Virus record (IMG/VR): IMGVR_UViG_3300032007_000018
Location: 72,445-136,444 of that record
DNA length: 64,000 nucleotides
Source: a virus
Strand: one strand, 5' to 3'
The position numbers and the translations under genes were made by a program. The notes beneath the pieces were generated by a model, which worked only from the letters and a program-made list of their open reading frames with translations, did not search any database and was not told the origin of the DNA. Positions 34,225 to 61,306 of the stretch are shown here, piece after piece (within the stretch, counting starts at the first letter, position 1; every line of letters starts with the position of its first letter).

Positions 34225-34244
34225 TCCAAAAGGAGGACAACTCA

Positions 34245-37761: not shown

Positions 37762-37762
37762 A

Positions 37763-40474: not shown

Positions 40475-40482
40475 CACAACAA

Positions 40483-41864: not shown

Positions 41865-42038
41865 ATGAGATTGTTAATGTTCGTATTTTGTGGGCTTCTG
41901 GCTCTGCGCTTCGTGTGGGACTTCTCCCAAATGTCCAAAAGCAAAGACGCAACAGCCTTTACAAGAGGGTTAATGTCTGCGGCGTTTGATGCCGCTGTGA
42001 TTATCCTGTTTGCAATTATTGAGAAAGGAAGATGGTAA
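41865..42038 (+). CDS. Small membrane protein (57 aa) in an AT-rich islet
   Basis: Class B promoter TTGATT 41814 / TATAAT 41839. SD AAAGGAGAA. Two hydrophobic segments. Confidence 0.45.
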   Translation: MRLLMFVFCGLLALRFVWDFSQMSKSKDATAFTRGLMSAAFDAAVIILFAIIEKGRW

Positions 42039-42039
42039 A

Positions 42040-42516
42040 ATGAAAATGTTGATTATTTTTGCCCTTGCTACTCTTTTGAATGTGGTGCTTGCCACTATCA
42101 AAAGTGTAATGACAATCAAGGGGACTAAAATTTCTGCGGCGGTGTGGAACGCGCTGTCTTTCGGTCTGTATTCCTACATCGTCATTTTGACCGCCACCGC
42201 TGATTTAACCACGCTTGAAAAAGTTGTTGTTACTGTGGTGTGTAACCTCATCGGCGTGTATGGCGTCAAGTGGGTTGAGGAAAAAATGCGGAAAGACAGA
42301 ATGTGGAAATTAGAAATGACTGTGCTTTCTGCCGAAGCGGACACAATGCACCGCGCATTGGAAGATGCTAACATTCCTAATCACTATGTAAACGCAGGGC
42401 GTCACGCCGCTTTCAGTTGCTACTGTGCAACTAAGGCAGACACCGATGCCGCCCTTGCGATTGGTGAAAAGTTTAACGCAAAAACCTTTGCGGCTGAAAC
42501 CCATTTAGCGCCCTAA
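42040..42516 (+). CDS. Membrane protein (about 3 transmembrane helices) with a soluble C-terminal domain
   Basis: Track ORF 42010..42516 with ATG at 42040 (MKMLIIFALATLL...). Co-transcribed with 41865. Confidence 0.55.
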   Translation: MKMLIIFALATLLNVVLATIKSVMTIKGTKISAAVWNALSFGLYSYIVILTATADLTTLEKVVVTVVCNLIGVYGVKWVEEKMRKDRMWKLEMTVLSAEADTMHRALEDANIPNHYVNAGRHAAFSCYCATKADTDAALAIGEKFNAKTFAAETHLAP

Positions 42517-42631
42517 TAGTTTAGGGCGCTAAAGCGCCCGGGCCGCGATTGTTAAAAAACTAACGCAAAAAATCTCTTGACAACTGTTCCAAAGTGTGCT
42601 ATACTGTATTACAGAAAGGGGGATAAAGCAC

Positions 42632-43015
42632 ATGGCAGAAACGCAAAAAGAAAAAATCATGCGCGTTCTGCAAGTGGACAGCCGACAGGCCGATGAAATC
42701 CTTGCCTATGACAAAGCGGTGGAGCGCGGCGAGAAAACACCCTATGACCTCACCGCCGAGCAGGAAAAGGAAGTCCGCAAGTATCGGCAGGCTGAACGCA
42801 AGCCCACGCTTTACAAGTGGGACACCAAAAAGCGTGAGCGTAAACCCAACGCCACAAAAGAGGGAATTGTCGCAGAAATCGCAACTTTTCTCAAAGAAAA
42901 CAGCGATTTTGACACAAAAGATGTGGAAATCACGAACAAAAATCGCGAGATTACTTTCCAAATCTCCGACGATACCTTTACTGTGACACTGGTGCAGAAG
43001 CGCAAGCCCAAATAA
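42632..43015 (+). CDS. Early protein, paralog family 2
   Basis: Promoter TTGACA 42577 / TATACT 42600. SD AAAGGGGGAT. Confidence 0.6.
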   Translation: MAETQKEKIMRVLQVDSRQADEILAYDKAVERGEKTPYDLTAEQEKEVRKYRQAERKPTLYKWDTKKRERKPNATKEGIVAEIATFLKENSDFDTKDVEITNKNREITFQISDDTFTVTLVQKRKPK

Positions 43016-43161
43016 TGCGGAAAAACCGCGGTTTTCGCAAGAAAATCGCGGTTTTTCTAACTTTTTTCGCATTTTTTAACGATTTACTGCGCGAAAGTGC
43101 GCCGCCCGGGTTGATTTTGTAAAAAATTTTTTGTATAATAATAATGTAAGGAAGTGAAAGA

Positions 43162-43413
43162 ATGAATGTGGTAAAGAAAATGGATGACATTGGAAGAATT
43201 GTCATTCCCCAAGATTTGCGGCGTTCATTGCGTTGGATGGGCGGAGATGAAATTGAAATCATTTCAAACAATGATGGAAGTCTTACTTTGCGCAAGCACG
43301 AAAATGATACTGCCAAAAGATTAAAAGAAATAAGTTTGGAATGGTCTAATGACATTGATGTTGAACAGCAATTCACTGAACTAATCAAACTAATTGAAAG
43401 TAAAACAAAATAA
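43162..43413 (+). CDS. AbrB/SpoVT-family regulator (second copy)
   Basis: MDDIGRIVIPQDLRRSLRWMGGDEIEI. Class B promoter TTGATT 43111 / TATAAT 43134. AT-rich islet. Confidence 0.65.
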   Translation: MNVVKKMDDIGRIVIPQDLRRSLRWMGGDEIEIISNNDGSLTLRKHENDTAKRLKEISLEWSNDIDVEQQFTELIKLIESKTK

Positions 43414-43429
43414 CGGAGGAGCCAAAGCA

Positions 43430-43546
43430 ATGTCTATTGAATTGTTAGAAGCCCTAATCTTAATTGTCAAACACTGTTTGGAATCAAACGGTTGCGATGA
43501 TTGTATTCTAAAGGGTTTCTGTGGTAAGTTGCCAAAAGACTGGTAA
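43430..43546 (+). CDS. Small Cys-rich peptide (38 aa)
   Basis: SD GGAGGAG, then ATG. CLESNGCDDCILKGFCG. Confidence 0.35.
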   Translation: MSIELLEALILIVKHCLESNGCDDCILKGFCGKLPKDW

Positions 43547-43716
43547 CCGACACCGGCCGCAGTGCGGTCGAATTTTCACGAGGCAAGCCCTTTGGCTCTT
43601 TTTGTTTTGATTGCCCGGGCCGCAGGTTTACATAATAATTTTCCCGAAAAAAACTGTTGACAAACCGCCAAGAGTATGCTATACTATAATCACCAAGAGA
43701 AAAGGAGATAAATCAA

Positions 43717-44007
43717 ATGGCTACTAGGTATTCTGCGCGTTGGCGCTGGGAGGGTAAGGACAGCGAAAGCATTGCGCTTTTCTCTGCTGATGTTCCGCAG
43801 GAAGTCCTTGTTGACTTCGTGGATTCCCTCTGGGCGAATGCCGCAAACTGGCAGGCTGGCGAGGGCGAAGACATTCGCTGGGTTGACTGCATCGACATGG
43901 AAACTGGCGAGGTCATTGCCGAGCGTTCCGACTGGGACGAACCTGACAACTGCGACGACGATTGCGGCTTCGACCCCTACATGGGTTGCTATACCGATGA
44001 CTGCTAA
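43717..44007 (+). CDS. Early small acidic protein
   Basis: Track ORF. Promoter TTGACA 43657 / TATAAT 43685. Confidence 0.6.
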   Translation: MATRYSARWRWEGKDSESIALFSADVPQEVLVDFVDSLWANAANWQAGEGEDIRWVDCIDMETGEVIAERSDWDEPDNCDDDCGFDPYMGCYTDDC

Positions 44008-44020
44008 GGGGGGTGGAACT

Positions 44021-44167
44021 ATGACCTTGATGCAATGTTATAGTAAAATCATCAGCGAGGTATTCTGGCGCTCCATCTATTTCGGCGTCCCTTTCTCGCA
44101 GGTTTGGCCTCTGCCTGTCATCCTCTGCGTAGCAATCACTGTTTACCACTTCATCACGCGAGAGTGA
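44021..44167 (+). CDS. Small hydrophobic peptide (48 aa)
   Basis: ATG after GGGGGGTGG. It is the C-terminal part of track ORF 43772..44167. Confidence 0.35.
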   Translation: MTLMQCYSKIISEVFWRSIYFGVPFSQVWPLPVILCVAITVYHFITRE

Positions 44168-44261
44168 TGAAGTGGCCCGGGCCAAAATTTTTTTTGAAAA
44201 AGGTATTGACAAATAAACACAAGTATGCTATACTGTATTCAGAAAGTGAGGGATACAGAAA

Positions 44262-44570
44262 ATGAAAAACGAAGTGAAATACAAAGATTATCGCATCGGG
44301 CGTGATGTGTACACTGTAAAACTGACCTATTCTCCGCAAGGTAGCCTTTTCGGCCCTGAAGTGCGTGTGGAAGTGATGAAATGGCATCAGCCGCCCCGCA
44401 ACCTGTGGGAGCGCATCACCGAATGGTGGAAATATTATCTTTCTGGTTGGGTATGGAACCCCGCTTTGACAAATGCTTCGCTTAATGCTTACTGCATTGA
44501 CAAGTGCAACTATGAAGCAGCACAACGCCTCGCAATAGAGAGGGGCGACAAGGAATGGGAGGCTATGTGA
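44262..44570 (+). CDS. Early hypothetical protein
   Basis: Track ORF. Promoter TTGACA 44206 / TATACT 44229. Confidence 0.6.
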   Translation: MKNEVKYKDYRIGRDVYTVKLTYSPQGSLFGPEVRVEVMKWHQPPRNLWERITEWWKYYLSGWVWNPALTNASLNAYCIDKCNYEAAQRLAIERGDKEWEAM

Positions 44571-44611
44571 GCCTCCCTGCCGCCCGGGCGCGATTGTTAA
44601 AAAACTAACGC

Positions 44612-44643
44612 TTGACAATAGGCCAAAAGTGTGCTATACTATA
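44612..44643 (+). promoter_or_regulatory. Representative class A promoter (one of about 34)
   Basis: cTTGACAatag...tgTGCTATACTATAAT. Preceded by a GCCCGGGCG box and an A-tract (GATTGTTAAAAAACTAACG). Confidence 0.6.
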
Positions 44644-44684
44644 ATCACATTGAGGGTGGTGGCCTACACTAAGGAGATTTTTCT

Positions 44685-45311
44685 ATGGAAAAGCACAAAT
44701 TTTTTGAGCGTGAAATCTTGCTTCTTGAAAGTGAAGATTTGCGCGACTTCGCCCGCTGGTATCTTGACAATCATGTGGGCAACTGGTTCTGGAAGTCTGG
44801 CGCGTCCGCAAGTGGGAAGTATCATCCCTCTTTCACTCATGGCGAGGGCGGGCTTGTGCGTCACACTCGCGCGGTGTGTATGGTCTGCGAGGAACTTCTG
44901 CGCATGAGCGGCTACGCATACATGAAAGCGGAATACAAAGACTTTGCGCGGCTTGCCTGCCTGCTCCACGATACGCGCAAGTATGGAAGCGGCGACGAGG
45001 AAGATAAGAGTTATTATCCGCGACATGGTGAAGCCGCCGCAAATGATGTTGGCGTTGCGTGGCGTGAGTTTTTCCACAGTCATTCCTGCCCCGAATTGCT
45101 CTTGATGGCTATTCGCTCCCACATGGGACAGTGGACTGAAAACCGCGATGACCGCCCCTTTACCAACATTGACCGCCTTGTGCATCTGTCGGACTACATT
45201 GCAAGCCGCCCATTTTGGGACATTCCCGAACTGACATCGCAGTATTACGAGGACGCGGCGCGAGAAATTCTTGATGCCCCGCCTGCTGGTATGGTGGACT
45301 ACCCCTTTTAA
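44685..45311 (+). CDS. HD-domain phosphohydrolase
   Basis: KYHP...H...LLHDTRKY motifs. Track ORF. Confidence 0.6.
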   Translation: MEKHKFFEREILLLESEDLRDFARWYLDNHVGNWFWKSGASASGKYHPSFTHGEGGLVRHTRAVCMVCEELLRMSGYAYMKAEYKDFARLACLLHDTRKYGSGDEEDKSYYPRHGEAAANDVGVAWREFFHSHSCPELLLMAIRSHMGQWTENRDDRPFTNIDRLVHLSDYIASRPFWDIPELTSQYYEDAAREILDAPPAGMVDYPF

Positions 45312-45642
45312 TGGGGGTAGTCCGCGCCCGGGCAGCCGGCAAATTGCACAAAAGGGGTCTAAAATTTTAACACTTTTTGTGCAAAATCCCATCTTGCAAT
45401 TTTCTGAAAATCTGCTATAATAATAATTGTCAAGAGGCGGTGGACACCGCAGAACAAAAACGAGAGGCGCGGACAGCGGTGAACAGTGCGGAGCGCCCAG
45501 CCCGAAAAAATTTTTCAAAGAAATTTGAAAAACCTCTTGACAAACAGCGCGAAGTGTGCTACAATAAGAATGTAAGCAAGAGGGAAACAAAACCCCTGCT
45601 AATAAAATGGGTGGTGACCGACACCAGAAAGAGGTAGATACT

Positions 45643-46044
45643 ATGACCAAGACTGAAAAGATGACCAACCGCAAGGCTCTGACCTACTGCATTGACAACT
45701 GCGACCTGCCCGCCGATGTTGCGGAGAAGCTGACCGCCATGGTCGCCGCGCTGGATAAGAAGTCCACCGCCGAGCGCAAGCCCACCGCCAAGCAGGGCGA
45801 GAACGCCACTGTGCGCGCCGCTGTCGTGAAGTTCATCAACGACAACGCCGAGGGCGACGGCTTCACCTGCTCCGACCTTATCAAGGCCTGCCCCGCTGTT
45901 GAGGGCAAGTCCAACCAGTATGTCTCCGCCATCCTGCGTCAGGCGGTGCTGGCTGGCGAGATTTCCAAGGGCACTGTGAAGCGTCGCACCTACTTCGCCC
46001 CTGTGGGCGTCTACGCCACCGCTGACGAGGACGAGGGGGAGTAA
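45643..46044 (+). CDS. Early protein, paralog family 1
   Basis: Promoter TTGACA 45537 / TACAAT 45560. Leader hairpin UGGUGACCGACACCA directly upstream. The track ORF has an upstream extension. Confidence 0.6.
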   Translation: MTKTEKMTNRKALTYCIDNCDLPADVAEKLTAMVAALDKKSTAERKPTAKQGENATVRAAVVKFINDNAEGDGFTCSDLIKACPAVEGKSNQYVSAILRQAVLAGEISKGTVKRRTYFAPVGVYATADEDEGE

Positions 46045-46261
46045 TCCCCCTCCCCTCACAAGGGGCAAGCGCCCCTTTACATGGGCCGTCGGGGGGTCAG
46101 GCCGCGAAAGTCAACGCTTGCCTGTGGCGTTGATAAGTAGTGCCCTTGGGCGGTCGATGTAAGGGGGCGCTTGCGCGCCCGGGTGATTGACAAAAACTTA
46201 ACGAAAATTTTTTTGAAAAAAGTATTGACAAAAGCAGACCTGTGTGCTATACTATAATTGT

Positions 46262-46545
46262 TCCAAGGGAAAAGGGAGCGCGGCGAGGGCTAACAGCGAC
46301 GAGTGGACGCACTTAGGACACCTTGACCGCGCAGGAACATTCAAGGTCGCCACGCGACCAAAAGAGCAAAAGGCAAGATGTGAGAAAGGACGAGCTTACA
46401 ATGGGTTTGCCGATGTGTTATCCTAAGTGGTGGAAGTGACCCACCCGCCAAAAAGAGGTCACCGCCTGTGGCGTCCAAAACCGCAGGTGTTGGATAAGGG
46501 GTCGTTGCCGCGAGGAGTTGCTAACCTTGCGGCAGTCGGCCCGGG
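46262..46545 (+). ncRNA. Promoter-driven ORF-less structured RNA (about 285 nt)
   Basis: Promoter TTGACA 46225 / TATACTATAAT 46248-58. Begins UUGUUCCAAGGGAAAAGGGAGCGC like the RNA at 38941. Stems GGUCGC-cac-GCGACC and UGCCGCGAGG-aguugcuaa-CCUUGCGGCA. No credible ORF; track ORF 46244..46426 starts inside the promoter. Confidence 0.45.
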
Positions 46546-46637
46546 TGATTGTTAAAAAAATAATTAGCAAAAAAGACTTGACAACGACGTAGTTATCTGC
46601 TATACTATAATCACCAAGAGAAAAGGAGATAACTAAA

Positions 46638-46862
46638 ATGTTCAGAGGTTGGTTTGACGATTTGGAAAGGGCAATCGTGGCGTTTCGTGCGCTTGGGATT
46701 GATGACCTGTTTTGCTCCATCAGTGTCAACCTGTATGGCGATTTTGTTTTTGAAATTGCCGAAGGTGTCAAATACTTCGTGAAGCATGACAGCCTTGGCA
46801 ACTACAGCGTGTGGCGCAACTTCGGGGATTGGAGAAATCCCGATTGGAGGGAAATCAAGTGA
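46638..46862 (+). CDS. Early small protein
   Basis: Track ORF. Promoter TTGACA 46578 / TATAAT 46604. Confidence 0.6.
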   Translation: MFRGWFDDLERAIVAFRALGIDDLFCSISVNLYGDFVFEIAEGVKYFVKHDSLGNYSVWRNFGDWRNPDWREIK

Positions 46863-47011
46863 CTGTCAAAGAACTAATCAAAAAGTTGGAAACCATGCCA
46901 CAAAATGTGGAAGTCATTTTTTGGAATGAACAGCCCGAAACATGGTATTCCACTAAGACCTGCGAAATCTCTGTTAATTCGCACACAGGTTATGTCGATT
47001 TTGAAATCTAA
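46859..47011 (+). CDS. Early small protein (50 aa), GTG start
   Basis: GTGA overlap with the upstream stop. C-terminal part of track ORF 46811..47011. Confidence 0.4.
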   Translation: MTVKELIKKLETMPQNVEVIFWNEQPETWYSTKTCEISVNSHTGYVDFEI

Positions 47012-47029
47012 GAAAGGAATCTGATTACT

Positions 47030-47221
47030 ATGACGAACGAACTGAAATGCCCCAAGTGTGGCGGAACGCACATCATGGAAGATGACTGCTATGACGTCAT
47101 CGGCGGAGCGGAAAACACCATCAAAGAACTGATGTGCGGTTGCTGTGAGGACTGCGGTGCTGATGTTCAATGGGAAAGGGTTTATAAATTCATTGGCTAC
47201 GATGGCATCGAGGAGGGCTAA
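47030..47221 (+). CDS. Small Zn-ribbon protein
   Basis: Track ORF with CPKCGG...CGCCEDCG. Confidence 0.6.
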   Translation: MTNELKCPKCGGTHIMEDDCYDVIGGAENTIKELMCGCCEDCGADVQWERVYKFIGYDGIEEG

Positions 47222-47320
47222 GCCCTCTTCGGTCGCCCGGGTCATTGTGAAAAAACTAACGCTTGACAAAATGCCGCTAATGTGCTATACTAAGAGCGTA
47301 AACAGAAAGGGGATAACAAA

Positions 47321-47542
47321 ATGATTGACGAAGAACTTATTTACAAAGCACAGCGTATACTTAATGACAGATGCCTCTGGTGGGAAGATAGCTGGCGCAA
47401 GCTTTCCATAAAAGGTGAAACAGAGGCAAGTGCGCGGTCTGCGGCTCGCGCAAATGCTTATAAATCCGCATGTGATATTCTTCTCGCGGCGGTGCAGGGA
47501 AATAAAGAAGTTTTGAAGGAGTTTGATTACTATGCTGACTAA
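47321..47542 (+). CDS. Early small protein
   Basis: Track ORF. Promoter TTGACA 47264 / TATACT 47286. Confidence 0.6.
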   Translation: MIDEELIYKAQRILNDRCLWWEDSWRKLSIKGETEASARSAARANAYKSACDILLAAVQGNKEVLKEFDYYAD

Positions 47543-47783
47543 AAAGTTTTTCTGCCCTGTGAATGGCTGGGACTGCCCCTACTTCAAAAAGGATGGTTCT
47601 TGCTCCATGATTGACAAGGGGCTTGACCCCGAGGACGAGTGCGACGATGCCGCCTGCTTTTTGGAGGACGAGGATGATTGCCCCTGCGTGTGGGAAGATG
47701 AAAATGGCAATCGCTATGATGTTGATGAACTTCTTGCGCAGGGGTATCGCTTCGCCAATGGTGAGCCTGTGTTAGCCGAGTAA
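47532..47783 (+). CDS. Small acidic Cys-containing protein
   Basis: Track ORF 47523..47783. The ATG at 47532 is the preferred start. Confidence 0.5.
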   Translation: MLTKKFFCPVNGWDCPYFKKDGSCSMIDKGLDPEDECDDAACFLEDEDDCPCVWEDENGNRYDVDELLAQGYRFANGEPVLAE

Positions 47784-47883
47784 ACCTCGGCTAACCTCCC
47801 GGGCGCAAGTTAAAAAAATAACGCTTGACATTTTCGTTTTTGTATGCTATACTATGTATAGAAAACGAAAGGAGATAACAAAA

Positions 47884-48255
47884 ATGTTTGACATTAAAAA
47901 CTGCCCCGATGAAGCGTGGAACTATGAGTTTATCGTCTGCGAGACCCGCGACGATGGACTGGTTTTCAACAGTTACCACAAGAGCGGCTGTGCCGCTGAA
48001 ACTGTCGCAAGCCATCTGAATTGTGGCGTCGTCGTTCACAATGTCCGCATCCAAGGCTACAAGGACCCCGCTCCTATGAAGCGCTTCACCTTCAGCGGCA
48101 AGTGGTATTGGGACTGCTTCGCGCATGACATTGAAGAGGCAAAGCAGAAGTATTCCGATGAATCCTACCCCGAAGACATTTACATCGCCAACTATGATGA
48201 TGTAGAGGTTGAAGAGTGCGATTCTGCCGCAAATGAAAAGGAGATAAAAAGATGA
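47884..48255 (+). CDS. Early hypothetical protein
   Basis: Promoter TTGACA 47825 / TATACT 47848. SD AAAGGAGAT. The track ORF is extended upstream. Confidence 0.6.
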   Translation: MFDIKNCPDEAWNYEFIVCETRDDGLVFNSYHKSGCAAETVASHLNCGVVVHNVRIQGYKDPAPMKRFTFSGKWYWDCFAHDIEEAKQKYSDESYPEDIYIANYDDVEVEECDSAANEKEIKR

Positions 48256-48575
48256 AGATTGAATCTAAAATCAGCGGTTGGAGCATCACTGATGTGAGCA
48301 TCAAGATTTTTCCCCACCTGCGCAGCGAAATCGTGACGCTGAACGACATTGACAAGTTATCCCAGCGTTCGGCACAGTGGATTTTTGACCACTACAACCT
48401 CGTGGGGCTGAACGCCGAAATTGCGGGATGCCATTTCGGTGTGCTTATGTCGCATGATGACATGTGTAAAGTCTCCATCATGGAGAGCTACCCCGAAATT
48501 GAAAAGGAACTTGCGGATTATTTCAATCCCTCTTTCGGGGACTGGACAAAGTGCTACTTGCGGTTTGGGCACTAA
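48252..48575 (+). CDS. Early hypothetical protein
   Basis: Track ORF, ATGA overlap with the upstream gene. Confidence 0.6.
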   Translation: MKIESKISGWSITDVSIKIFPHLRSEIVTLNDIDKLSQRSAQWIFDHYNLVGLNAEIAGCHFGVLMSHDDMCKVSIMESYPEIEKELADYFNPSFGDWTKCYLRFGH

Positions 48576-48682
48576 GCCCAAGCCGCGGTAGCCCGGGCGC
48601 AAAATTTTTTCAAAAAACCTCTTGACAACCTCGCGTAAATGTGCTATAATCAAGGTACAAAAAACGAAGGGAGACTTCAAAA

Positions 48683-48955
48683 ATGACTTTGGTTCTGAAT
48701 CGCGACTGGGGCGGCTACTCTCTGCCGCAGGACTTCTGTGATGCCTATGGTATCGGCGATGCGTGGGATGCGCCTGTCGAGCGCGATGACCCCCGTCTTA
48801 TCAAGTGGGTGCGCGACCACGCCGATGGCCGCGGCAAGTGCGGCGACCTCGCCTGTGTGGAAATCCCCGACAACTGCACCGACTACAAGATCGATGACTA
48901 CGATGGCATGGAATCCGTCATCTATGTGGTGGACGGCAAAATCTATCACGCCTAA
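48683..48955 (+). CDS. Early hypothetical protein
   Basis: Track ORF. Promoter TTGACA 48622 / TATAAT 48645. Confidence 0.6.
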   Translation: MTLVLNRDWGGYSLPQDFCDAYGIGDAWDAPVERDDPRLIKWVRDHADGRGKCGDLACVEIPDNCTDYKIDDYDGMESVIYVVDGKIYHA

Positions 48956-49071
48956 GCAGGGGGCAACCCCTGCCGCGGCCCGGGCGGTTTACATAATAAT
49001 TTTCTGCTTGACATTTTGAAAAAGGTATGCTATAATCAGTGTAGAAAATGAAAAAGGGAGGGTTTGCTGTA

Positions 49072-49220
49072 ATGACGCTTGATGAGATGAAAGAAAAAGC
49101 CATTGAAAATTTCATCAATGCTTGGGACGAGCTTACGATGCTTGGTCTGATGGTCTGCGACGATGTTACTAAAGAGTACATTGACAAAGACGACATTGAT
49201 GTGCGCGAAGTGGAGGGTTG
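49072..49220 (+). CDS. Last small gene of the GC-rich array (49 aa)
   Basis: Promoter TTGACA 49008 / TATAAT 49031. SD AAGGGAGGG. Confidence 0.4.
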
Positions 49221-49436
49221 ACATAACCCTCCTCGCGCCCGGGTGATTTCGCCGGGCCGCTGACGCAGGCAGCTGGTCCGTTCTTCGCCCCCAAAACACA
49301 TATGCAAATTTTTTCGTCACACGAGTGGCATATGCCGCGATCCCTATTACTCCCGAAACCCCCGGTCGGGGGCCGATACCTAGCATATGGCCTTCCGGCC
49401 TTGACTTTTATAAAAAAATATGTTATAATATAAAAA

Positions 49437-49523
49437 AAAGACATATGCCAGGAGCAGACACACAAACCCCGGCCGGGGCAAGCGCAAAACTAAAAATCCC
49501 AAGCGTCAGCGCAGGGATTTTAT
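49437..49523 (+). ncRNA. Candidate small RNA (about 85 nt) with its own promoter and terminator
   Basis: Class B promoter TTGACT 49401 / TATAAT 49424. Transcript carries hairpin CCCCGGCCGGGG. Intrinsic terminator AUCCC-aagcgucagcgca-GGGAU plus UUUUAU at 49496-49523. Confidence 0.45.
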
Positions 49524-49654: not shown

Positions 49655-50113
49655 ATGAATTATACTAACGACATTCTTATCCGTCTACAGCACGGCGAGG
49701 ATGTAAACACAATCGCAACCGAACTCACCAAGAGCATCAACGATGCCAACAACCGCTATAAGGCGGAGATTGAGGCCAAGAGAAAGGCAGAACAGGAAGC
49801 CAAGCTCAAGGCCGCCGCAGAGGAGGCCGAGCGCAATGACAAGGTTAAGGCGTGCGAGGATCTGCTCGACGCATTCTATGCGATAGTCGTAGCCTGGGAG
49901 ATTGATAGCGACCTGCTAGATGAAATCGAGCACTATGACGCGGCCGAACTCGCCTCTCAACTGGATGATATCATCCCTGCCATCCAGAAGTGGGCAGAAT
50001 TGGTGGATATGCTGCGCGCGGACGATGAGTTGCGGCCGACCCCGGTCGGGGACAGCTCTGTGAAGAAAGCATCCAGTCCCATTGAAGAGTTTTTGAATAA
50101 GTACGTGCGATAA
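49655..50113 (+). CDS. Coiled-coil hypothetical protein
   Basis: Track ORF. Followed by a strong terminator. Confidence 0.6.
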   Translation: MNYTNDILIRLQHGEDVNTIATELTKSINDANNRYKAEIEAKRKAEQEAKLKAAAEEAERNDKVKACEDLLDAFYAIVVAWEIDSDLLDEIEHYDAAELASQLDDIIPAIQKWAELVDMLRADDELRPTPVGDSSVKKASSPIEEFLNKYVR

Positions 50114-50121
50114 TAAGTAAA

Positions 50122-50160
50122 AAGAAAAACCCCCTAGACTAATGTCTAGGGGGTTTTATT
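50122..50160. terminator. Bidirectional rho-independent terminator
   Basis: AAAAACCCCCTAGAC-taat-GTCTAGGGGGTTTT between convergent genes. Confidence 0.75.
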
Positions 50161-50200
50161 ATTTGTATTATAAACGATGACGGTCACGGAGAAACGAACA

Positions 50201-50410
50201 TCATATTTGACACCGGTCGGGGGCACGCAAACTCCACTCAAAACATCTTTCTCTGGCTGGAATTGCTATTCTCATATTCCTATACTTCATTAATTTTTTA
50301 TACATATCATATGCTGTTTTATTCGCAAACAAATGACCTTGGTATCTGTATACTTTATTTTCCCCACACCAAGGAATTATACGCTTAAGCTGGCATCGAT
50401 TTCGTCCCAT
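50201..50410 (-). CDS. Small hypothetical protein
   Basis: Track ORF. Confidence 0.4.
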   Translation of the reverse strand: MGRNRCQLKRIIPWCGENKVYRYQGHLFANKTAYDMYKKLMKYRNMRIAIPARERCFEWSLRAPDRCQI

Positions 50411-50799
50411 AGTTTATCCAGTCCTTTGAAAAAGTCATCAACAACCTTACTATATGCACCATAACCAAACTCCACGTTGAGTGCTGACGCACTCAGGTCA
50501 AGCTCGGGAACTTCCTTTTGTTGCGGAGCAACAAAAGGCTTCTTATCTTGCGGCCAACGATAGTTTCTGCTCCCATCGAACAGGGTGACATTACCACCAT
50601 CGGTCATCTCTCCAATAAACTTACCCTCGAGCACAAGTTCAAGATTCTGATGCTTCGCATCAGTTCTCACCGCATAGATGGTATCTTTATCATACTTCCA
50701 CTCAGGCTCTAGGTCTCCGTAGGAGACCACATAAACATCATGTCCTCTGTATTTTCCAACTATTCCATTTTTATCTCGATATCCCATAGTTTCCTCCAT
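50377..50799 (-). CDS. Hypothetical protein (140 aa)
   Basis: Track ORF, intact. Confidence 0.55.
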   Translation of the reverse strand: MEETMGYRDKNGIVGKYRGHDVYVVSYGDLEPEWKYDKDTIYAVRTDAKHQNLELVLEGKFIGEMTDGGNVTLFDGSRNYRWPQDKKPFVAPQQKEVPELDLSASALNVEFGYGAYSKVVDDFFKGLDKLWDEIDASLSV

Positions 50800-50916
50800 A
50801 TGTTTTTGATTCGATTTTTCAATTCACTTCTTCTATCTTCTACTTATATTATATCAAATTTTTCAAAATAATTCAAGTTCATTTTCCTCTAAAAACATAT
50901 TTGGAATGATTTTCTC

Positions 50917-51093
50917 CTATGTTTCCTTTTTTATTCCATAATGCTTCAATTCATAGGCTTCTAAATCACCTTTACCAACGAAGTATATTGCTCCACTATC
51001 ATCTACAAATACTTCTACTTTCTCTGGATTTCTTTCCATCATAGCATCTATCCTATCGGCAGATACGCTATAAAACTTTACTTGTCTAGACAT
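50917..51093 (-). CDS. Small hypothetical protein
   Basis: Track ORF 50917..51117. The preferred start is MSRQVKF, which has SD GGAGATAAAGGA. Confidence 0.45.
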   Translation of the reverse strand: MSRQVKFYSVSADRIDAMMERNPEKVEVFVDDSGAIYFVGKGDLEAYELKHYGIKKET

Positions 51094-51229
51094 TCCTTTA
51101 TCTCCAATCATTCGCAAGAGGATTTAGAAGGCCCGAATGGGACTTCTAAAGCCTCTATTTAAAAAACTATTTAGTAACATATTTATATTTATAAGGATAC
51201 TATTTTTTTAACAACTCTATATAAAAATG

Positions 51230-51292
51230 CCGAAAATTTTTAACACTAGGCGTCTAAATTTTTAACACTAAGCGTCTAAATTTTTAACACCT
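51230..51292. repeat. Iteron array 1 (3 direct repeats of GCGTCTAAATTTTTAACAC, about 22 bp period)
   Basis: Copies at 51234, 51250 and 51272. Confidence 0.7.
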
Positions 51293-51406
51293 TCAAATTT
51301 CAATATAGTTAGTTAAAAAGTCAATCTAATAAACCGTTCTAACGTCTTTATATTCAATGTTTTCCTACTGTAAAGTAGTTAAATGATATTTAATTAAACC
51401 AATTTT

Positions 51407-51922
51407 CTACAATACAAACAAAATATTATTAATAACTTCATCATTACTTCTTGTTGTAGTACATATACCAATATGCTTCTTCACGTCGCTTAATAAAAAA
51501 GTAAATGGTTTTTCATCATTAGCGACATATCTCATTAATAAATATAAATAAGCAGAAATACAATGCTCGCTTAATGTGTCATTAATCAGTTTTAAAGTGG
51601 GCTCCGGAATCAATCCAGCCGCCTCCGCAGGTAATATACTTAAATAATACCTACCCCTACTATCGGGAAACTCTGATACCAATTTTAATTTAACTAAATT
51701 CTAAAATTTAGTAGATGCTGTTTGACGACTAATACCTAATAATTTACCTATTTGGCTAAAATTAATTAACGACTTTTCAATATATCTCTAATGTCCCTAT
51801 ACGCCATCCCATTGTGAATGCTCTTGAAGATAGCCATAAAGTATATCGTGATATTTTTTATCAGCACAAATTTTTTCTATTTTAGGAATTTGTCTAGTGT
51901 CTAATCCTTTTAAATTTTTCAC
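51407..51922 (-). CDS. Helix-turn-helix DNA-binding protein, TAG-recoded, flanked by iteron arrays (candidate replication initiator or iteron-binding regulator)
   Basis: Track ORF 51407..51682 extends upstream in frame through 4 TAGs. HTH motif: INFSQIGKLLGISRQTASTKF[TAG]NLVK. A possible GTG start lies near 51922. Confidence 0.45.
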
Positions 51923-51964
51923 GAGTTAATACACATCCTTTCATAGTATCTTCAATTTTTTGTT

Positions 51965-52160
51965 AAATATTTTAACACTTCATACCCAAACTTTGTAATA
52001 CCCAGTAAGACCGTGTAATACAGGGTCTAAAATTTTAACACATTTTTTTAACAGTTCATATATCGGTCTAATTTTTTAACAATTAATTAGTGCGTCTAAA
52101 ATTTTAACACACTCAGTCTAAAATTTTAACAATTTATATAAGCGTCTAAATTTTTAACAT
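51965..52160. repeat. Iteron array 2 (6-7 copies of GTCTAAAATTTTAACA)
   Basis: Copies at about 51965 (half), 52024, 52065, 52093, 52116 and 52143. Two GTAATAC repeats at 51996 and 52014. Confidence 0.7.
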
Positions 52161-52312
52161 ACGACTATCCAAAATTACCTATAATTTTTACCCATCCGTT
52201 CCTGCGGCGACCCCGTCTCAACGCTCCTCACACCGAGCACAGCCGCATCCATTTGACTTTTATAATTTTATATGTTATAATATATATAGAAAAATAGGAA
52301 AGGAGTATAAAG

Positions 52313-52612
52313 ATGCTACCATTTATCGCTAAAGTTCATTACTACAATGAGGCTACATATCCGGCAACCCTGGAACATACCAGCGTTCTTCTTTATGGCG
52401 ATAGTTTCGCACAAGCAACTCAAATCATGGAAGATTACTTCGGCAACGATATAGAGAGTATAAAGCTCACTTGCGTTGCCTGTGAGGGAACTTTCTTTGA
52501 GGTTCCCAATCACATCGCAGAGGTTTTTATTGCTGGTGAAGGTGATTTCCGCAATGGTAAAAAGAATCTCAAAATGATTAAGGAGGACGAGAAGAATGAG
52601 TTACACACCTGA
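52313..52612 (+). CDS. Hypothetical protein
   Basis: Track ORF. Class B promoter TTGACT 52254 / TATAAT 52276. SD AAAGGAG. Confidence 0.6.
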   Translation: MLPFIAKVHYYNEATYPATLEHTSVLLYGDSFAQATQIMEDYFGNDIESIKLTCVACEGTFFEVPNHIAEVFIAGEGDFRNGKKNLKMIKEDEKNELHT

Positions 52613-52949
52613 AGCAGTCGTTCTTGCTGGATATAAAATCTCTCCAGAGGTTTGGGCGTATGCCTGGAGCAAGTATGAAGATGGTTATGATAACTATCCC
52701 GGCTGGATTGAGGATATGTTTATTGACGCAAACCCGGCAACCGGCAGAGGTCCACTGTTTTTCGGTTCAATTATTCATAACGTTGCAGAAGATTGCGAGC
52801 CTGTTGAGTTCGATTCCATCCTCGCCGACTCTGAAACCATCAACCGCACTCTCGTAGCGTTCACAAGCCTCTTCGAAGAATACTACAAACAGCACCCCGA
52901 AGAGAAAGTGCCAAAGTTCACGAAATATCTTTTCTGTCGGTGGATGTAA
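52596..52949 (+). CDS. Hypothetical protein
   Basis: Track ORF, SD AAGGAGG. Confidence 0.6.
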   Translation: MSYTPEAVVLAGYKISPEVWAYAWSKYEDGYDNYPGWIEDMFIDANPATGRGPLFFGSIIHNVAEDCEPVEFDSILADSETINRTLVAFTSLFEEYYKQHPEEKVPKFTKYLFCRWM

Positions 52950-53188
52950 TGTTCCAGAAGAAATGTAGTACCTGCCATCTATATCTGCCGCAGCAACTAA
53001 CCTGCCAGATTATGATACAACAAATGCAGGGTAAAATCAAACCAGACGATTATTGCTCTCAACACAACGACCATATCCCCCAGTGCGAATCTTGCGGCGC
53101 TGGGTTGTTGGAGCCTATCATCGTAGTAGACGAACAAAAACACGGACATTATTACTGTCCGCAATGTTATAGAATTAAAAATCCGTGA
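52949..53188 (+). CDS. Zn-ribbon protein
   Basis: Track ORF 52940..53188 with CSTCH...CSQH..CESCG...CPQC. Confidence 0.55.
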   Translation: MFQKKCSTCHLYLPQQLTCQIMIQQMQGKIKPDDYCSQHNDHIPQCESCGAGLLEPIIVVDEQKHGHYYCPQCYRIKNP

Positions 53189-53302
53189 CGGTTTACGAAT
53201 GATTCCGTGACGATTCGTGAACCTTTTCAAAGCCGGAAAGCCAATTTTTCGGCTTTGAAACTACATTTTGATAATTTCATCCAAAAAAAAGGAAATTTCA
53301 AT

Positions 53303-53740
53303 ATGCCTGATAATATCAAAACCGAAAACCAGATTATGATGGAACTCAATCAAAAGATCGTGCGCGAGGTCGAAGAGTTTATCTCCTACTTTGATGGTAC
53401 ACAGGATAATTTCCTTCACGGAAATTGTTTCTGGTTCGCGGTGATTCTTAAAGAGCGTTTCAATCCATGGTACGTCTGTAATATTATGTATAACCCCGTC
53501 GATAATCATTTCGCCGCTTATATTCATGGTATGCTCTTTGATGCAGGTGGCCTGCGGCCGGAGCAATGCCCGTTTGACGGTTGGAGGCTGTGGGAGAAAT
53601 TCGAAAAAGAGGAATATATCGAAGCAAGACGTATCTATCGTGATTGCGTCTACCATATGACTCCGGAACAGTGGGAGAATCTGTCCTTCAGTCAGCGGAA
53701 TGGCGCAGTTCATCACGCATCCTATATCTCATCTCACTAA
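53303..53740 (+). CDS. Hypothetical protein
   Basis: C-terminal part of track ORF 53207..53740. SD AAAAAGGAAAT. Confidence 0.55.
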   Translation: MPDNIKTENQIMMELNQKIVREVEEFISYFDGTQDNFLHGNCFWFAVILKERFNPWYVCNIMYNPVDNHFAAYIHGMLFDAGGLRPEQCPFDGWRLWEKFEKEEYIEARRIYRDCVYHMTPEQWENLSFSQRNGAVHHASYISSH

Positions 53741-53792
53741 AATAATTATATCATAATAATTCACATAAGTCAATCCAGGAGGGAGAATCTAT

Positions 53793-54083
53793 ATGATCGT
53801 TTGTGCGGCACTTAAAATTCGCGATGGTATATATGAATATACTGTTTGCGGCTTGCGGCATAGTGACTGCTATGCCACACTATTTGATTTAAATAAAGAA
53901 CTTTCTAAGAAAGCCAGAGCGAGTTCTGCTGTCATTGAAGGTTTCTTAACTACCGATAATGAGTTCCTTGACCGCTATGAGGCATATGAACACGCCAAAG
54001 CTTGCGGCCAGATACCTGCGCAATTACGATATGATAAAGGAGTAAAGCATGAAACAGTCCTGTATTCCGAAGATCTCTACTAA
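53793..54083 (+). CDS. Hypothetical protein
   Basis: Track ORF. Confidence 0.55.
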   Translation: MIVCAALKIRDGIYEYTVCGLRHSDCYATLFDLNKELSKKARASSAVIEGFLTTDNEFLDRYEAYEHAKACGQIPAQLRYDKGVKHETVLYSEDLY

Positions 54084-60323: not shown

Positions 60324-61150
60324 ATGATAGGAATTTATAAAATCACAAATAAAATTAACCAGATGGCCTATATTGGATAGTCTATTCGAATAGAGTAGAG
60401 ATGGCAGGAGCATATCGCCGGAAATAAAAATTCATATATTCATAATGCGATAAAAAGATATGGTGTTGCTAATTTTAGTTTTGAAATATTGGAAGAGTGT
60501 CCTAAAGAATTATTAGACGAAAGAGAAATTTATTGGATAAAATATTATAATACTTTTGAGAATGGATACAATCTAACAGTTGGTGGCAATTCTGGTTTTC
60601 ATTATAATATTGACGCTATTTTTGAGGATTATTAGAAAACTAACAGTCTAAGTGAAACCGCTAAACATTTCAATTGTCATTATAATACCGTAAAAAATAT
60701 ACTTAAAATCTTTGGTTGCGAGAATTTCGGAGAGTGGCAAGAAGAAAAGCCAGTAGAACAAATAGATCCTAAAACATTGACTGTTATTACTACATACCCG
60801 TCGTTGCGTGCGGCAGGAGAGGCATTTGGCTGTTCTTGGACTGCTATATAGGCTGCGGCCGCAGGTAAACACAAAAGTTCTTGTGGATTTTACTGGAGAT
60901 ATGTTGGAGATAACAATAAGATTTTTGAAAAAGTAAATAGCACACGCAGTTAGAAAACTCCAGTTATTTAGTTGGATTATAATACACTAGAAGAATTAAA
61001 CTATTTCGAATCTGCTACAGAGGCAGCAAGAGCTTTAGGAAAAACAGTTGGAAAGCCAGGCTCTTGTATTACTGCTGCGTGTAGAGGCTCTGCAAAATCA
61101 GCCTATGGATTTAAATGGAAATATGCAGATTCTTCATATTTTTAGGCGTA
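60324..61150 (+). CDS. GIY-YIG homing endonuclease with a NUMOD-like C-terminal repeat region, TAG-recoded
   Basis: MIGIYKITNKINQMAYIG[TAG]S...RW[TAG]EHIAGN...YGVANF...GYNLTVGG. Repeated G(C/K)SWTAI-like modules. SD GAGGAGG. The 3' end is uncertain: a terminator hairpin lies at 61164-61202. Confidence 0.7.
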
Positions 61151-61306
61151 ATCAACGCCACAATCAAGAGCCGAGGGAATTATCCCTCGGCTCTTTTTGT
61201 CTTTAACCTGCTCGCCGCGCCAGCGCACGTGCCTACCGTCCGCAGAAATAAAAGTTGCATTACCTATTTTTTTTTGTTATAATTATAATATAAGGGAGTG
61301 ATTATT

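What the first reader, a model, noticed from the sequence alone, without database searches (positions are those of the whole stretch)
51230..52160. Two iteron arrays flank a recoded helix-turn-helix gene: candidate origin of replication or centromere-like site, plus a solitary iteron at 45356
Direct repeats of (G)CGTCTAAAWTTTTAACA(C) occur 3 times at 51234-51290 and 6-7 times at 51965-52160, with a period of about 22-28 bp. They bracket 51407-51922 (minus), which encodes a TAG-recoded protein with a clear helix-turn-helix (GKLLGISRQTASTKF). One more copy, GGTCTAAAATTTTAACAC, lies at 45356-45373 in the early region, next to a promoter at 45394. The architecture resembles iteron-type origins with a Rep initiator, or a ParB/centromere arrangement. 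The cluster also lies at the switch between leftward genes (50201-51922) and the rightward class B module.
Basis: partly seen in the sequence, partly recalled or inferred. Interest (0 to 1): 0.7.

Follow-up and report, generated by a model that had tools for sequence, protein, structure and literature searches.

The report
Iteron cassette around a winged-helix gene
A phage gene for a two-domain DNA-binding protein is flanked by arrays of its own probable binding sites, a layout conserved in hundreds of related gut phages that most resembles a plasmid-style replication origin with its initiator, although origin activity is unproven.

Summary
The repeats are real. GTCTAAAWTTTTAACA occurs 8 times at ≤1 mismatch, all on the + strand (0.36 expected). 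Two plus two variant copies abut the stop codon of a minus-strand gene. Five plus a half-site lie upstream of it, and one is at 45357.

The gene is 51293-51922, not 51407-51922; 51407 is an in-frame TAG (Gln). It encodes a 209-aa tandem winged-helix protein.

Gene plus flanking arrays are conserved in every relative examined, at 35-85% identity. Remote homologues (28-31%) in a Clostridium perfringens prophage and in Tenericutes and Bacilli MAGs carry their own different repeats with a 22-23 bp period, in an array on one side of the gene.

A palindrome of the invariant repeat half (TGTTAA-N3-5-TTAACA) sits about 50-60 bp before the start codon in 11 of the loci scanned. An AT-rich conserved element follows the downstream array.

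This matches the iteron/operator logic of RepE/pi/P1-RepA replicons, and fold searches weakly favour initiators. No sequence membership in any Rep, ParB or ScpB family was found. There are no DnaA boxes and no neighbouring replication genes.

Best reading: an iteron origin with an autoregulated initiator (~0.5). The main rival is a pure transcription switch.

The gene is a TAG-dense island among standard-code genes.

The parts
51293..51922 (-). Gene for a 209-aa tandem winged-helix (WH1 + WH2) DNA-binding protein. GTG start, TGA stop, 6 in-frame TAG read as Gln.
   Evidence: ORF and translation. 141 homologues of 200-209 aa. AlphaFold model with two winged-helix domains, pLDDT 78. TAG falls on the invariant Gln67 in relatives. 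TAG is 50% of Gln codons and GC is 0.29, the same as the recoded late genes.
51274..51289 (-). Downstream array, copy 1 (TGTTAAAAATTTAGAC). It starts 3 bp after the stop codon.
   Evidence: The same position in relatives.
51252..51267 (-). Downstream array, copy 2, 22 bp from copy 1.
51228..51245 (-). Downstream array, copy 3, a variant tail (TGTTAAAAATTTTCGGCA), 22 bp from copy 2.
   Evidence: (family D3). The same variant sits in the same place in L094, L095 and L003.
51195..51214 (-). Downstream array, copy 4, a variant (TTGTTAAAAAAATAGTATCC), 32 bp from copy 3.
   Evidence: Invariant in 9 aligned relatives.
51160..51202 (-). Conserved AT-rich element. The block TAGTATCCTTATAAATATAAATA is at 51180-51202, and the AT-rich stretch continues to 51160. 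It is a candidate DNA-unwinding element, or alternatively a promoter for the next gene.
   Evidence: Near-invariant block in alignment A4. Unique in the window. 51147-51226 is among the 7 least stable 80-bp windows in 64 kb.
51118..51155 (-). Long hairpin conserved in structure but not in sequence. It has an A-tract, a GC stem and a T-rich tract, so it is probably the terminator or attenuator that ends the cassette.
   Evidence: Eight relatives each fold into a 15-20 bp stem (-15 to -24 kcal/mol) with different sequences.
51961..51977 (.). Palindromic operator TGTTAAA-ATA-TTTAACA, made of two inverted copies of the invariant repeat half. It begins 55 bp upstream of the GTG start, at 51977 on the gene strand, and overlaps an extended -10-like TGTTAAAAT.
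   Evidence: The same palindrome with invariant arms and a variable 3-5 nt spacer begins 48-61 bp before the start in 11 of the loci scanned. The window has 2 such palindromes against 0.65 expected.
52025..52040 (-). Upstream array, copy 1.
52045..52056 (-). Half-site (CTGTTAAAAAAA) between upstream copies 1 and 2.
   Evidence: (D2, D4). Conserved in L094, L095, L001 and L002.
52066..52081 (-). Upstream array, copy 2 (1 mismatch).
52094..52109 (-). Upstream array, copy 3.
52116..52131 (-). Upstream array, copy 4. Together with copy 5 it forms a sigma-70-like site (TTTAGA-16-TAAAAT with TG) that points at the gene.
52144..52159 (-). Upstream array, copy 5.
52253..52281 (+). Strong divergent promoter (TTGACT-17-TATAAT with TG) of the rightward standard-code operon, whose ATG is at 52313. 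It is 93 bp from the array here but 12-13 bp from it in relatives.
45357..45372 (+). Solitary repeat. It lies in the centre of an inverted repeat (TTGCACAAAA at 45344-45353 and TTTTGTGCAA at 45375-45384) and ends 21 bp upstream of the -35 of a promoter-like site at 45394-45421.
   Evidence: Equivalent solitary copies lie in the same kind of inverted repeat in L001, in the opposite orientation.
50863..51093 (-). First co-oriented downstream gene (about 76 aa, 1 TAG). Conserved in close relatives, function unknown.
50377..50799 (-). Second co-oriented downstream gene (140 aa, no TAG), with its own promoter-like site at 50848-50876. Conserved in relatives, no family match.

Best explanation
The locus is a self-contained cassette of an iteron-binding protein and its sites. 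It most likely works as a theta-type replication origin with its own initiator.

Proposed mechanism:
1. The 209-aa protein has two winged-helix domains. As a monomer it would read the asymmetric 16-19 bp repeat. One domain would contact the invariant half (TGTTAAAA) and the other the clade-specific half (TTTAGAC here). The two halves lie one helical turn apart.
2. As a dimer it would bind the palindrome TGTTAAA-N3-TTTAACA, which overlaps its own promoter, and so repress its own gene.
3. Protein bound to the 22-bp-phased repeats just after the stop codon would open the adjacent conserved AT-rich element and recruit a helicase.
4. The upstream array would serve autoregulation, control of the divergent promoter, and possibly pairing with the downstream array.

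Shown by the data:
- The repeats, their phasing, the palindrome, the AT-rich element and the tandem winged-helix fold.
- Conservation of the layout across the family.
- Co-variation of repeat sequence with protein.

Inferred only:
- That this protein binds these sites.
- The monomer and dimer binding modes.
- DNA opening, helicase recruitment and origin activity.
For: - Repeats are far above chance and all co-oriented.
- In 24 related loci at 35-85% protein identity, arrays lie 95-270 bp upstream of the gene. In all but one of those scanned they also start 1-70 bp after its stop codon.
- Remote homologues at 28-31% identity sit in a C. perfringens prophage and in Tenericutes and Bacilli MAGs. 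Each has 3-5 repeats with a 22-23 bp period and quite different sequences, in one array beside the gene: downstream in the first two, upstream in the Bacilli MAG. In a phage with two paralogues the repeats change with the paralogue, and the recognition helices differ accordingly.
- Most downstream-array spacings are 22-23 or 32-34 bp, about two or three helical turns. Rep cooperativity on iterons depends on such phasing (PMC4980987).
- A palindrome built from the invariant half-repeat begins 48-61 bp before the start codon in 11 of the loci scanned. This parallels the RepE dimer on its operator (PDB 2z9o, listed) and Rep monomers on iterons.
- The fold is a tandem winged helix. RepE54 and Rep-iteron complexes make up most of the top 20 Foldseek-PDB hits, at E 1e-3 to 1e-2. 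The BFVD full-length matches that carry a functional name include 'Replication protein O' (E 1.8e-5, TM 0.60) and 'Replication initiator protein'. The second winged helix of a remote homologue hits the PHROG 'DnaD-like helicase loader' at 7e-5.
- A unique, near-invariant AT-rich block lies next to the downstream array and is among the least stable DNA in the window.
- In the C. perfringens prophage the order is gene, terminator, 22-bp x3 repeats, 10-bp x4 repeats, then an ~85-nt AT-rich tract, in a noncoding stretch about 0.5 kb before the first clear open reading frame. No other replication gene is seen in that arm.
Against: - No sequence-level match to Rep_3, RepA_N, phage O, DnaD or any initiator family reaches significance for the window protein. 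Only generic winged-helix transcription-factor families match the first domain, and below Pfam cut-offs.
- No DnaA-box cluster.
- No polymerase, helicase, primase or loader within ±10 kb of the gene in any relative.
- The cumulative GC-skew minimum of the window is at ~29 kb, with only a local dip at 52 kb.
- The gene is as TAG-dense as late genes, so the protein cannot be made before suppression is active. That is unusual for an initiator, though replication genes are variably recoded in such phages (bioRxiv 10.1101/2021.08.26.457843).
- Every array also lies just upstream of a promoter-like element, and solitary copies sit upstream of early promoters. That fits a transcription factor equally well.
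- Enterococcus phage relatives at 24% identity show no repeats.
Confidence: 0.5

Rival explanations
1. The protein is an autoregulated transcription factor and the site is not an origin. It would be made only after TAG suppression begins. It would bind the palindrome and the arrays to repress its own promoter and the divergent promoter of the rightward standard-code operon. It might also activate the conserved element in front of the small downstream genes and modulate a few early promoters through the solitary sites.
For: - The only sequence-level similarities of the first winged helix are to MarR, ArsR, Crp and PadR-type regulators.
- In relatives the upstream array starts 12-13 bp from the -35 of the divergent promoter.
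- Pairs of repeats form sigma-70-like sites that point at the gene.
- Solitary copies lie about 20-30 bp upstream of the -35 of early promoters, inside another inverted-repeat operator, in this window and in L001.
- The gene has the same codon class as the phage sigma-factor gene.
- No replication genes are nearby.
Against: - It does not explain why a second, 22-bp-phased array always follows the stop codon.
- It does not explain why a unique, near-invariant AT-rich block follows that array.
- Nearly all sites in a genome surround the gene itself. Early promoters of relatives mostly lack the motif: 0-1 of 14-33 promoters in most of the relatives scanned, 3 of 14 in L001.
- The full-length structural neighbours that carry a functional name are initiators rather than regulators.
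Confidence: 0.28
2. The locus is a centromere-like or DNA-organising site. The arrays would be bound and coated by the winged-helix protein in the manner of ParR, TubR or AspA, or of ScpB as PHROG 3396 labels the family. The purpose would be to position or condense phage DNA.
For: - Phased direct repeats in two clusters around a promoter resemble parC/tubC-type centromeres (general knowledge of ParR and TubR systems).
- The best PDB sequence match of a divergent family profile is the archaeal centromere protein AspA (E 1.4e-4), and TubR appears at E 0.09.
- PHROG 3396, annotated ScpB, matches at 3.5e-10.
Against: - No ParA, ParM or TubZ-like NTPase next to the gene in any relative. The larger neighbouring proteins have no such matches.
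- No ParB or SMC_ScpB Pfam match in 34 family members.
- ScpB is not known as a sequence-specific repeat binder (general knowledge).
- The genome looks virulent, with about 35 strong constitutive early promoters, so plasmid-style partition has no obvious role.
Confidence: 0.07
3. The locus is a packaging (pac) recognition site. A late-made DNA-binding protein would mark a unique site for the terminase, as TerS does at pac sites that lie in or near their own gene.
For: - The gene is coded like the late packaging genes.
- The site is unique in the genome and built from phased A4T4-containing repeats flanking the gene. This is reminiscent of the SPP1 and P1 pac layouts (general knowledge).
Against: - The large terminase and portal genes are 25 kb away, with another unassigned gene directly upstream of TerL as the more likely TerS.
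- The fold is a tandem winged helix, not a TerS-like oligomerisation fold. The terminase small subunit PHROG matches only at E 0.32.
- In the C. perfringens prophage the gene follows the tail genes, not the terminase.
- Contig ends of relatives do not coincide with the locus.
Confidence: 0.04

Closest known systems
Iteron replicons of RepE (mini-F), RepA (P1 prophage plasmid) and pi (R6K), Pfam Rep_3 type
   Same: - An initiator-sized protein (about 210-290 aa) built from two winged-helix domains.
- Asymmetric direct repeats of about 19-22 bp, helically phased.
- Arrays on both sides of the gene, as in P1 (incC-repA-incA) and F (ori2-repE-incC).
- An inverted repeat containing part of the iteron at the gene's own promoter, for dimer autorepression.
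- An AT-rich region beside the iterons.
(the P1 and F layouts come from general knowledge)
   Different: - No detectable sequence homology to Rep_3. Structural matches are weak, TM about 0.35.
- No DnaA boxes.
- The host element is a large, apparently virulent phage, not a plasmid, so a copy-control role for a second array is not obvious.
- The gene is TAG-recoded.
Lactococcal theta plasmids of the pCI305/pWV02 type (RepB with 22-bp x3.5 iterons plus an AT-rich region with short repeats)
   Same: - 22-bp tandem iterons in three to four copies next to an AT-rich tract.
- In the C. perfringens relative there is also a set of 10-bp repeats between the iterons and the AT tract.
(the plasmid layout comes from general knowledge)
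   Different: - In those plasmids the origin lies upstream of repB. Here the best-phased array and the AT-rich block lie downstream of the gene.
- No sequence relationship was shown.
Phage initiators with repeats: lambda O/ori-lambda, SPP1 G38P/oriL, and DnaD-like replisome organisers of Firmicutes phages
   Same: - A phage-encoded origin-binding protein with its cognate repeats physically linked to its own gene.
- Modular exchange of protein-repeat specificity pairs.
- BFVD neighbours named replication protein O, replication initiator or replisome organizer, and a PHROG DnaD-like hit for a remote homologue.

   Different: - In lambda and SPP1 the repeats lie inside the gene. Here they lie outside it on both sides.
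- No adjacent helicase-loader or helicase gene.
- Sequence matches to O-like PHROGs are not significant, at E about 0.1.
Bacillus phage phi105 immunity region (repressor with asymmetric direct-repeat operators between divergent promoters)
   Same: A divergently transcribed regulator gene, with several co-oriented non-palindromic sites between two promoters and further copies at a distance (general knowledge; layout).
   Different: - The phi105 repressor is a small single-domain helix-turn-helix protein of a temperate phage.
- No 22-bp-phased array follows its stop codon, and there is no conserved AT-rich block.
ScpB (the label of PHROG 3396, the only significant family match)
   Same: Two consecutive winged-helix domains. 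PHROG 3396 matches at 3.5e-10 over residues 19-186. The Enterococcus phage homologues are annotated this way.
   Different: - No match to Pfam SMC_ScpB in 34 members.
- ScpB works with ScpA and SMC, and no cognate repeats are known for it.
- The label is probably a fold-level mis-annotation.

Membership tests
Rep_3-type iteron initiators (RepE, pi, P1 RepA, pPS10 RepA) | Two winged-helix domains in one chain of about 200-290 aa | tested here: met
   AlphaFold model with WH1 at about 45-95 and WH2 at about 140-203, pLDDT 78. RepE and Rep complexes make up most of the top 20 Foldseek-PDB hits, at E 1e-3 to 1e-2 and TM about 0.35.
Rep_3-type iteron initiators (RepE, pi, P1 RepA, pPS10 RepA) | Sequence membership (Pfam PF01051 Rep_3 or a significant match to a solved Rep) | tested here: not met
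   No Rep_3 hit for the window protein or for 34 divergent members. No Rep among PDB sequence hits up to E = 10.
Rep_3-type iteron initiators (RepE, pi, P1 RepA, pPS10 RepA) | Tandem, helically phased direct repeats (iterons) next to the gene | tested here: met
   22-bp phasing downstream. Arrays sit beside the gene in all relatives examined except the 24%-identity Enterococcus phage relatives, which show none. The arrays lie on both sides at 35-85% identity, and remote homologues have their own sequences on one side.
Rep_3-type iteron initiators (RepE, pi, P1 RepA, pPS10 RepA) | Inverted-repeat operator containing part of the iteron at the rep promoter | tested here: met
   TGTTAA-N3-5-TTAACA begins 48-61 bp before the start codon in 11 of the loci scanned. 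Binding and repression themselves were not tested.
Rep_3-type iteron initiators (RepE, pi, P1 RepA, pPS10 RepA) | AT-rich unwinding element and DnaA boxes beside the iterons | tested here: inconclusive
   An AT-rich, low-stability conserved block adjoins the downstream array. No DnaA-box cluster.
Rep_3-type iteron initiators (RepE, pi, P1 RepA, pPS10 RepA) | Origin activity that depends on the protein | not testable with these tools
   Needs a replication assay or marker-frequency data.
Phage O-like / DnaD-like replisome organisers | Sequence match to an O-like or DnaD-like family | tested here: inconclusive
   The window protein matches phrog_678 at E 0.12 and phrog_8102 at E 0.1. A remote homologue's second winged helix matches phrog_186 (DnaD-like) at 7e-5. 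BFVD structural hits are named replication protein O or initiator.
Phage O-like / DnaD-like replisome organisers | Adjacent helicase-loader or helicase gene | tested here: not met
   The neighbours have no such matches, and Pfam tables for ±10 kb in relatives show none.
ParB/ParR/TubR centromere systems | ParB, ribbon-helix-helix or TubR-type centromere-binding protein | tested here: not met
   No ParB domain. Only weak winged-helix similarity to AspA (1.4e-4) and TubR (0.09).
ParB/ParR/TubR centromere systems | Partner NTPase (ParA, ParM or TubZ) in the same operon | tested here: not met
   The downstream genes encode about 76, 140 and 69 aa with no family match. The larger neighbours have no NTPase match.
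ScpB (PHROG 3396 label) | Pfam SMC_ScpB membership and an ScpA/SMC partner | tested here: not met
   PHROG 3396 matches at 3.5e-10, but no SMC_ScpB Pfam hit appears in 34 members. A partner was not searched for beyond the window.
MarR/ArsR/Crp-type winged-helix transcription factors | Pfam match above the gathering score | tested here: not met
   MarR_2 scores 19.7-25.6 bits against a cut-off of 27, and HTH_Crp_2 scores 17.7-20.8 against 27.
MarR/ArsR/Crp-type winged-helix transcription factors | Palindromic operator at a regulated promoter | tested here: met
   Palindrome at 51961-51977, overlapping an extended -10-like TGTTAAAAT.
Small terminase / pac site | Gene adjacent to the large terminase gene, with a TerS fold | tested here: not met
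   TerL is at 24651-26405, 25 kb away. The fold is a tandem winged helix. phrog_141 matches at E 0.32.

The most novel reading that the evidence does not exclude
The cassette could be a switch gated by the genetic code. The gene is a TAG-dense island among standard-code genes. It has 6 TAG in 209 codons here and up to 13 in relatives, including the invariant Gln in the middle of the WH1 recognition helix. The protein that binds the iterons and operator therefore cannot be made until the phage's amber suppression is working. Its appearance would then license initiation at this origin, or the shut-off of the divergent standard-code operon. That would couple the replication or transcription programme directly to the change of genetic code.
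Probability: 0.25. Interest if true: 0.8.

Novelty: new variant of a known kind. Interest (0 to 1): 0.55.

Why it matters
- The family has 758 clusters at 50% identity. It is spread over uncultivated phages with contigs up to about 220 kb that are binned with Clostridia and Lachnospiraceae genomes, and it extends to Clostridium perfringens prophages.
- Its only database label is a probably wrong 'ScpB'.
- If the cassette is the origin, it gives a sequence-defined origin and initiator for a whole group of gut phages that have none. It also gives a simple marker (gene plus 22-bp repeats) for annotating them and a minimal replicon for building vectors.
- If it is a regulator, it is a compact switch whose synthesis depends on stop-codon reassignment. 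That would be a direct molecular link between recoding and the infection programme, which so far is only a hypothesis.

Tried and rejected
- Nucleotide search of 50000-54000 against 50,697 phage records found no match. Protein search against plasmids also found none.
- Rfam found only tRNA-Lys, and no suppressor tRNA lies in the window.
- DnaA boxes are not enriched and do not cluster at the locus.
- An exact scan of viral contigs for one repeat gave mostly chance single hits. Only family members had multiple hits.
- I considered that the repeats are a promoter class for the phage sigma factor. I rejected this because neither the motif nor the TAGTATCC-TATAAATA block occurs upstream of late genes, and because the repeats follow the winged-helix gene even in phages of other types.
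- I considered that the protein regulates all early promoters, through the GATTGTTAAAAAACTAAC elements found at 6-10 early promoters here. I rejected this as a conserved function because early promoters of relatives mostly lack the motif.
- RNAalifold on the hairpin region failed because of indels. Folding each sequence separately showed the hairpin.
- Enterococcus phage homologues at 24% identity have the same lone opposite-strand placement but no detectable repeats.
- Walking beyond the window by exact-protein look-up failed.
- The paper on the phAss-1 recoded phages says nothing about origins or repeats.
Full report
**Setting.** The window is part of a large phage genome that reads TAG as an amino acid.
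- Treating TAG as sense turns fragmented frames into long ORFs, one of 3059 codons with 94 TAG.
- Positions 1-28.7 kb carry leftward, AT-rich, recoded late genes. A phage sigma factor is at 27681-28745, the large terminase at 24651-26405 and the portal at 21807-23477.
- Positions 29-50 kb carry rightward small genes in standard code with 45-51% GC. They are driven by about 35 near-identical strong sigma-70-type promoters.
- A bidirectional terminator lies at 50126-50157.
- A short leftward unit follows at 50201-51922. A rightward standard-code operon then starts from a strong promoter at 52253-52281.

**The observation.**
- GTCTAAAWTTTTAACA occurs 8 times at ≤1 mismatch, always on the + strand, against 0.36 expected.
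- The left array has two full copies 22 bp apart (51252, 51274). A third copy 22 bp further on has a different tail (51228-51245, TTCGGCA).
- The right array has five full copies (52025, 52066, 52094, 52116, 52144) and a half-site at 52045-52056.
- The solitary copy at 45357 is real.

**The gene.**
51407-51409 is an in-frame TAG at a conserved Gln.
- The ORF runs from GTG at 51922 to TGA at 51293. It is 209 codons with 6 TAG, and it ends 3 bp from the first repeat.
- The full length matches 141 homologues of 200-209 aa.
- In relatives TAG encodes the invariant Gln67, which confirms that TAG means Gln.

**The protein.**
- An AlphaFold model built on 49 homologues (pLDDT 78) shows two winged-helix domains joined by helices.
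- At sequence level, only generic winged-helix regulator families match the first domain, and below Pfam cut-offs.
- The only significant family match is PHROG 3396 at 3.5e-10, labelled 'ScpB'.
- A profile search finds 758 clusters in the family, but none of those scanned reaches a Rep, ParB or ScpB Pfam model.
- Full-length Foldseek matches are weak. In the PDB, RepE54 and Rep-iteron complexes make up most of the top 20.
- Among viral models, the best matches that carry a functional name include 'Replication protein O' and 'Replication initiator protein'.
- The second domain of a remote homologue hits a 'DnaD-like helicase loader' PHROG at 7e-5.

**Comparative evidence.** This is the strongest evidence.
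- I fetched 24 related loci at 35-85% identity.
- In each, co-oriented copies of TGTTAAAAWTTT plus a clade-specific tail lie 95-270 bp upstream of the gene. In all but one of those scanned they also start 1-70 bp after its stop.
- Within the intergenic alignments the repeats are the conserved columns and the spacers vary.
- The tail changes with clade: TAGAC, TGTACA, TTCTAT, ATGTAGAT.
- In three clades the upstream array is inverted. In one there is just one copy on each side.
- Remote homologues at 28-31% identity lie in a C. perfringens prophage and in Tenericutes and Bacilli MAGs. Each carries 3-5 repeats with a 22-23 bp period and unrelated sequence, in an array on one side of the gene.
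- In a phage with two paralogues the repeats differ with the paralogue, and the recognition helices differ as well.
- This co-variation argues that the protein binds the repeats. It also argues that gene plus repeats move as one module.

**Anatomy of the cassette.**
- A palindrome made of two inverted copies of the invariant half-repeat begins 48-61 bp before the start codon in 11 of the loci scanned, with invariant arms and a variable spacer. It overlaps an extended -10-like TGTTAAAAT.
- Most downstream-array spacings are 22-23 or 32-34 bp, about two or three helical turns.
- After the downstream array comes a near-invariant AT-rich block, TAGTATCC-TTATAAATA. It is unique in the window and among its least stable DNA.
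- A long hairpin follows, conserved in structure but not in sequence.
- In relatives the upstream array starts 12-13 bp from the -35 of the divergent promoter. Here a 65-nt GC-rich insert found only in this genome separates them.

**Interpretation.**
- The combination matches RepE, pi and P1-RepA replicons: a tandem winged-helix protein, asymmetric phased repeats on both sides of the gene, a half-repeat palindrome at its promoter, and an adjacent AT-rich block.
- In those replicons monomers bind iterons, dimers bind the operator, and cooperativity needs helical phasing (PMC4980987; PDB 2z9o).
- The C. perfringens relative looks even more like a classical origin. Its order is terminator, 22-bp x3 repeats, 10-bp x4 repeats, then an ~85-nt AT-rich tract, in a noncoding stretch about 0.5 kb before the first clear open reading frame. 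That arm shows no other replication gene.
- I therefore favour an iteron origin with an autoregulated initiator, at about 0.5.

**Why confidence is not higher.**
- No sequence membership in any initiator family.
- No DnaA boxes.
- No replication genes within 10 kb in any relative.
- The cumulative GC-skew minimum is at ~29 kb, though skew here simply follows gene orientation.
- Every array also lies upstream of a promoter-like element.
- Solitary copies sit in the centre of another inverted-repeat operator about 20-30 bp upstream of early promoters.
- A pure transcription switch therefore remains a serious rival, at about 0.28.
- A global role at early promoters is unlikely, because relatives mostly lack the motif there.
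- Centromere and pac-site readings lack their partner genes.

**An unusual aspect.**
- The gene is as recoded as the late genes. TAG makes up 50% of its Gln codons and its GC is 0.29, the same as the phage sigma gene. Its neighbours on both sides have no TAG.
- Relatives carry 0-13 TAG in this gene.
- The protein can therefore appear only once suppression works.
- Published work proposes recoding as a timer of late functions and notes that replication genes are variably recoded.
- A code-gated initiator or regulator would be a concrete example, but this remains inference.

Noticed in passing
window 31600-49450, + strand: About 35 near-identical strong promoters (TTGACA-17-TGCTATACT/TATAAT) each precede a small gene. 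Most follow a hairpin and the motif GCCCGGGC. This early region has 45-51% GC against 30-36% for the late genes of the same genome.
   Followed up: partly
window 31600-31640, 34570-34620 (serving divergent promoters), 38850-38900, 45344-45384: A second operator-like inverted repeat, GGCAAAWTGCACAAA-N~20-TTTGTGCAWWTTGCC, lies just upstream of four promoters. Only the copy at 45.35 kb has the iteron in its centre. L001 has two copies with an iteron, and L108 has related sites.
   Followed up: partly
window 32110, 32496, 33606, 36315, 40646, 41244, 42550, 44595, 46550: An element GATTGTTAAAAAA(C/A)TAAC lies 2-17 bp upstream of the -35 of several early promoters. It shares the TGTTAAAA core with the iterons and is almost the same as the iteron of relative L115 (TGTTAAAAAAACTAACAT). 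It may be an UP-element or a weak binding site. It is not conserved at promoters of other relatives.
   Followed up: partly
window 27681-28745 (-): A phage sigma-factor gene (PHROG 5767, 5e-55) heads the late operon. It has 7 in-frame TAG and a C-terminal zinc-ribbon/HNH-like tail.
   Followed up: no
window 12989-13984, 18065-19171, 19190-20206 (-): Three late structural genes inside the recoded operon have no TAG at all and a higher GC (0.41-0.45). They may be the most highly expressed ones.
   Followed up: no
window 11202-11801 (-), 23873-24604 (-), 60324-61151 (+): Three paralogous genes with a GIY-YIG-like N-terminus (KxYIGQS). They are probably homing endonucleases inserted in late and right-hand regions, and all are TAG-recoded.
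   Followed up: no
window 52186-52250: A 65-nt GC-rich block between the upstream array and the divergent promoter. It is absent from L094, L095, L001 and L002 and is not repeated in the window. The region 52160-52312 folds better than shuffled sequence (z = -3.1).
   Followed up: partly
window 40483-40558 (+): tRNA-Lys(CTT) lies directly downstream of one of the early promoters. It is the only tRNA in the window, so the TAG suppressor must be elsewhere.
   Followed up: no
L119-L121 (Clostridium perfringens prophage and related contigs): The remote homologue sits right after the tail genes. It is followed by a Rha/ANT antirepressor, a roughly 970-aa protein of the RdRP family (PF05183) and a large serine recombinase. 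L120 has two tandem paralogues of the winged-helix gene.
   Followed up: partly
L040 4840-5500: In this relative the gene is flanked by only one repeat on each side. The two form perfect 20-bp inverted repeats (TAGCGTCTAAAATTTTAACA ... TGTTAAAATTTTAGACGCTA), next to NAD-salvage genes.
   Followed up: no
L113 7941-8636 (Enterococcus phage VRE9_4) and EF1/EF5/H1: Homologues at 24% identity are annotated ScpB or hypothetical. Each is a lone opposite-strand gene inside a long block of small early genes, the same placement as here, but without detectable repeats.
   Followed up: partly
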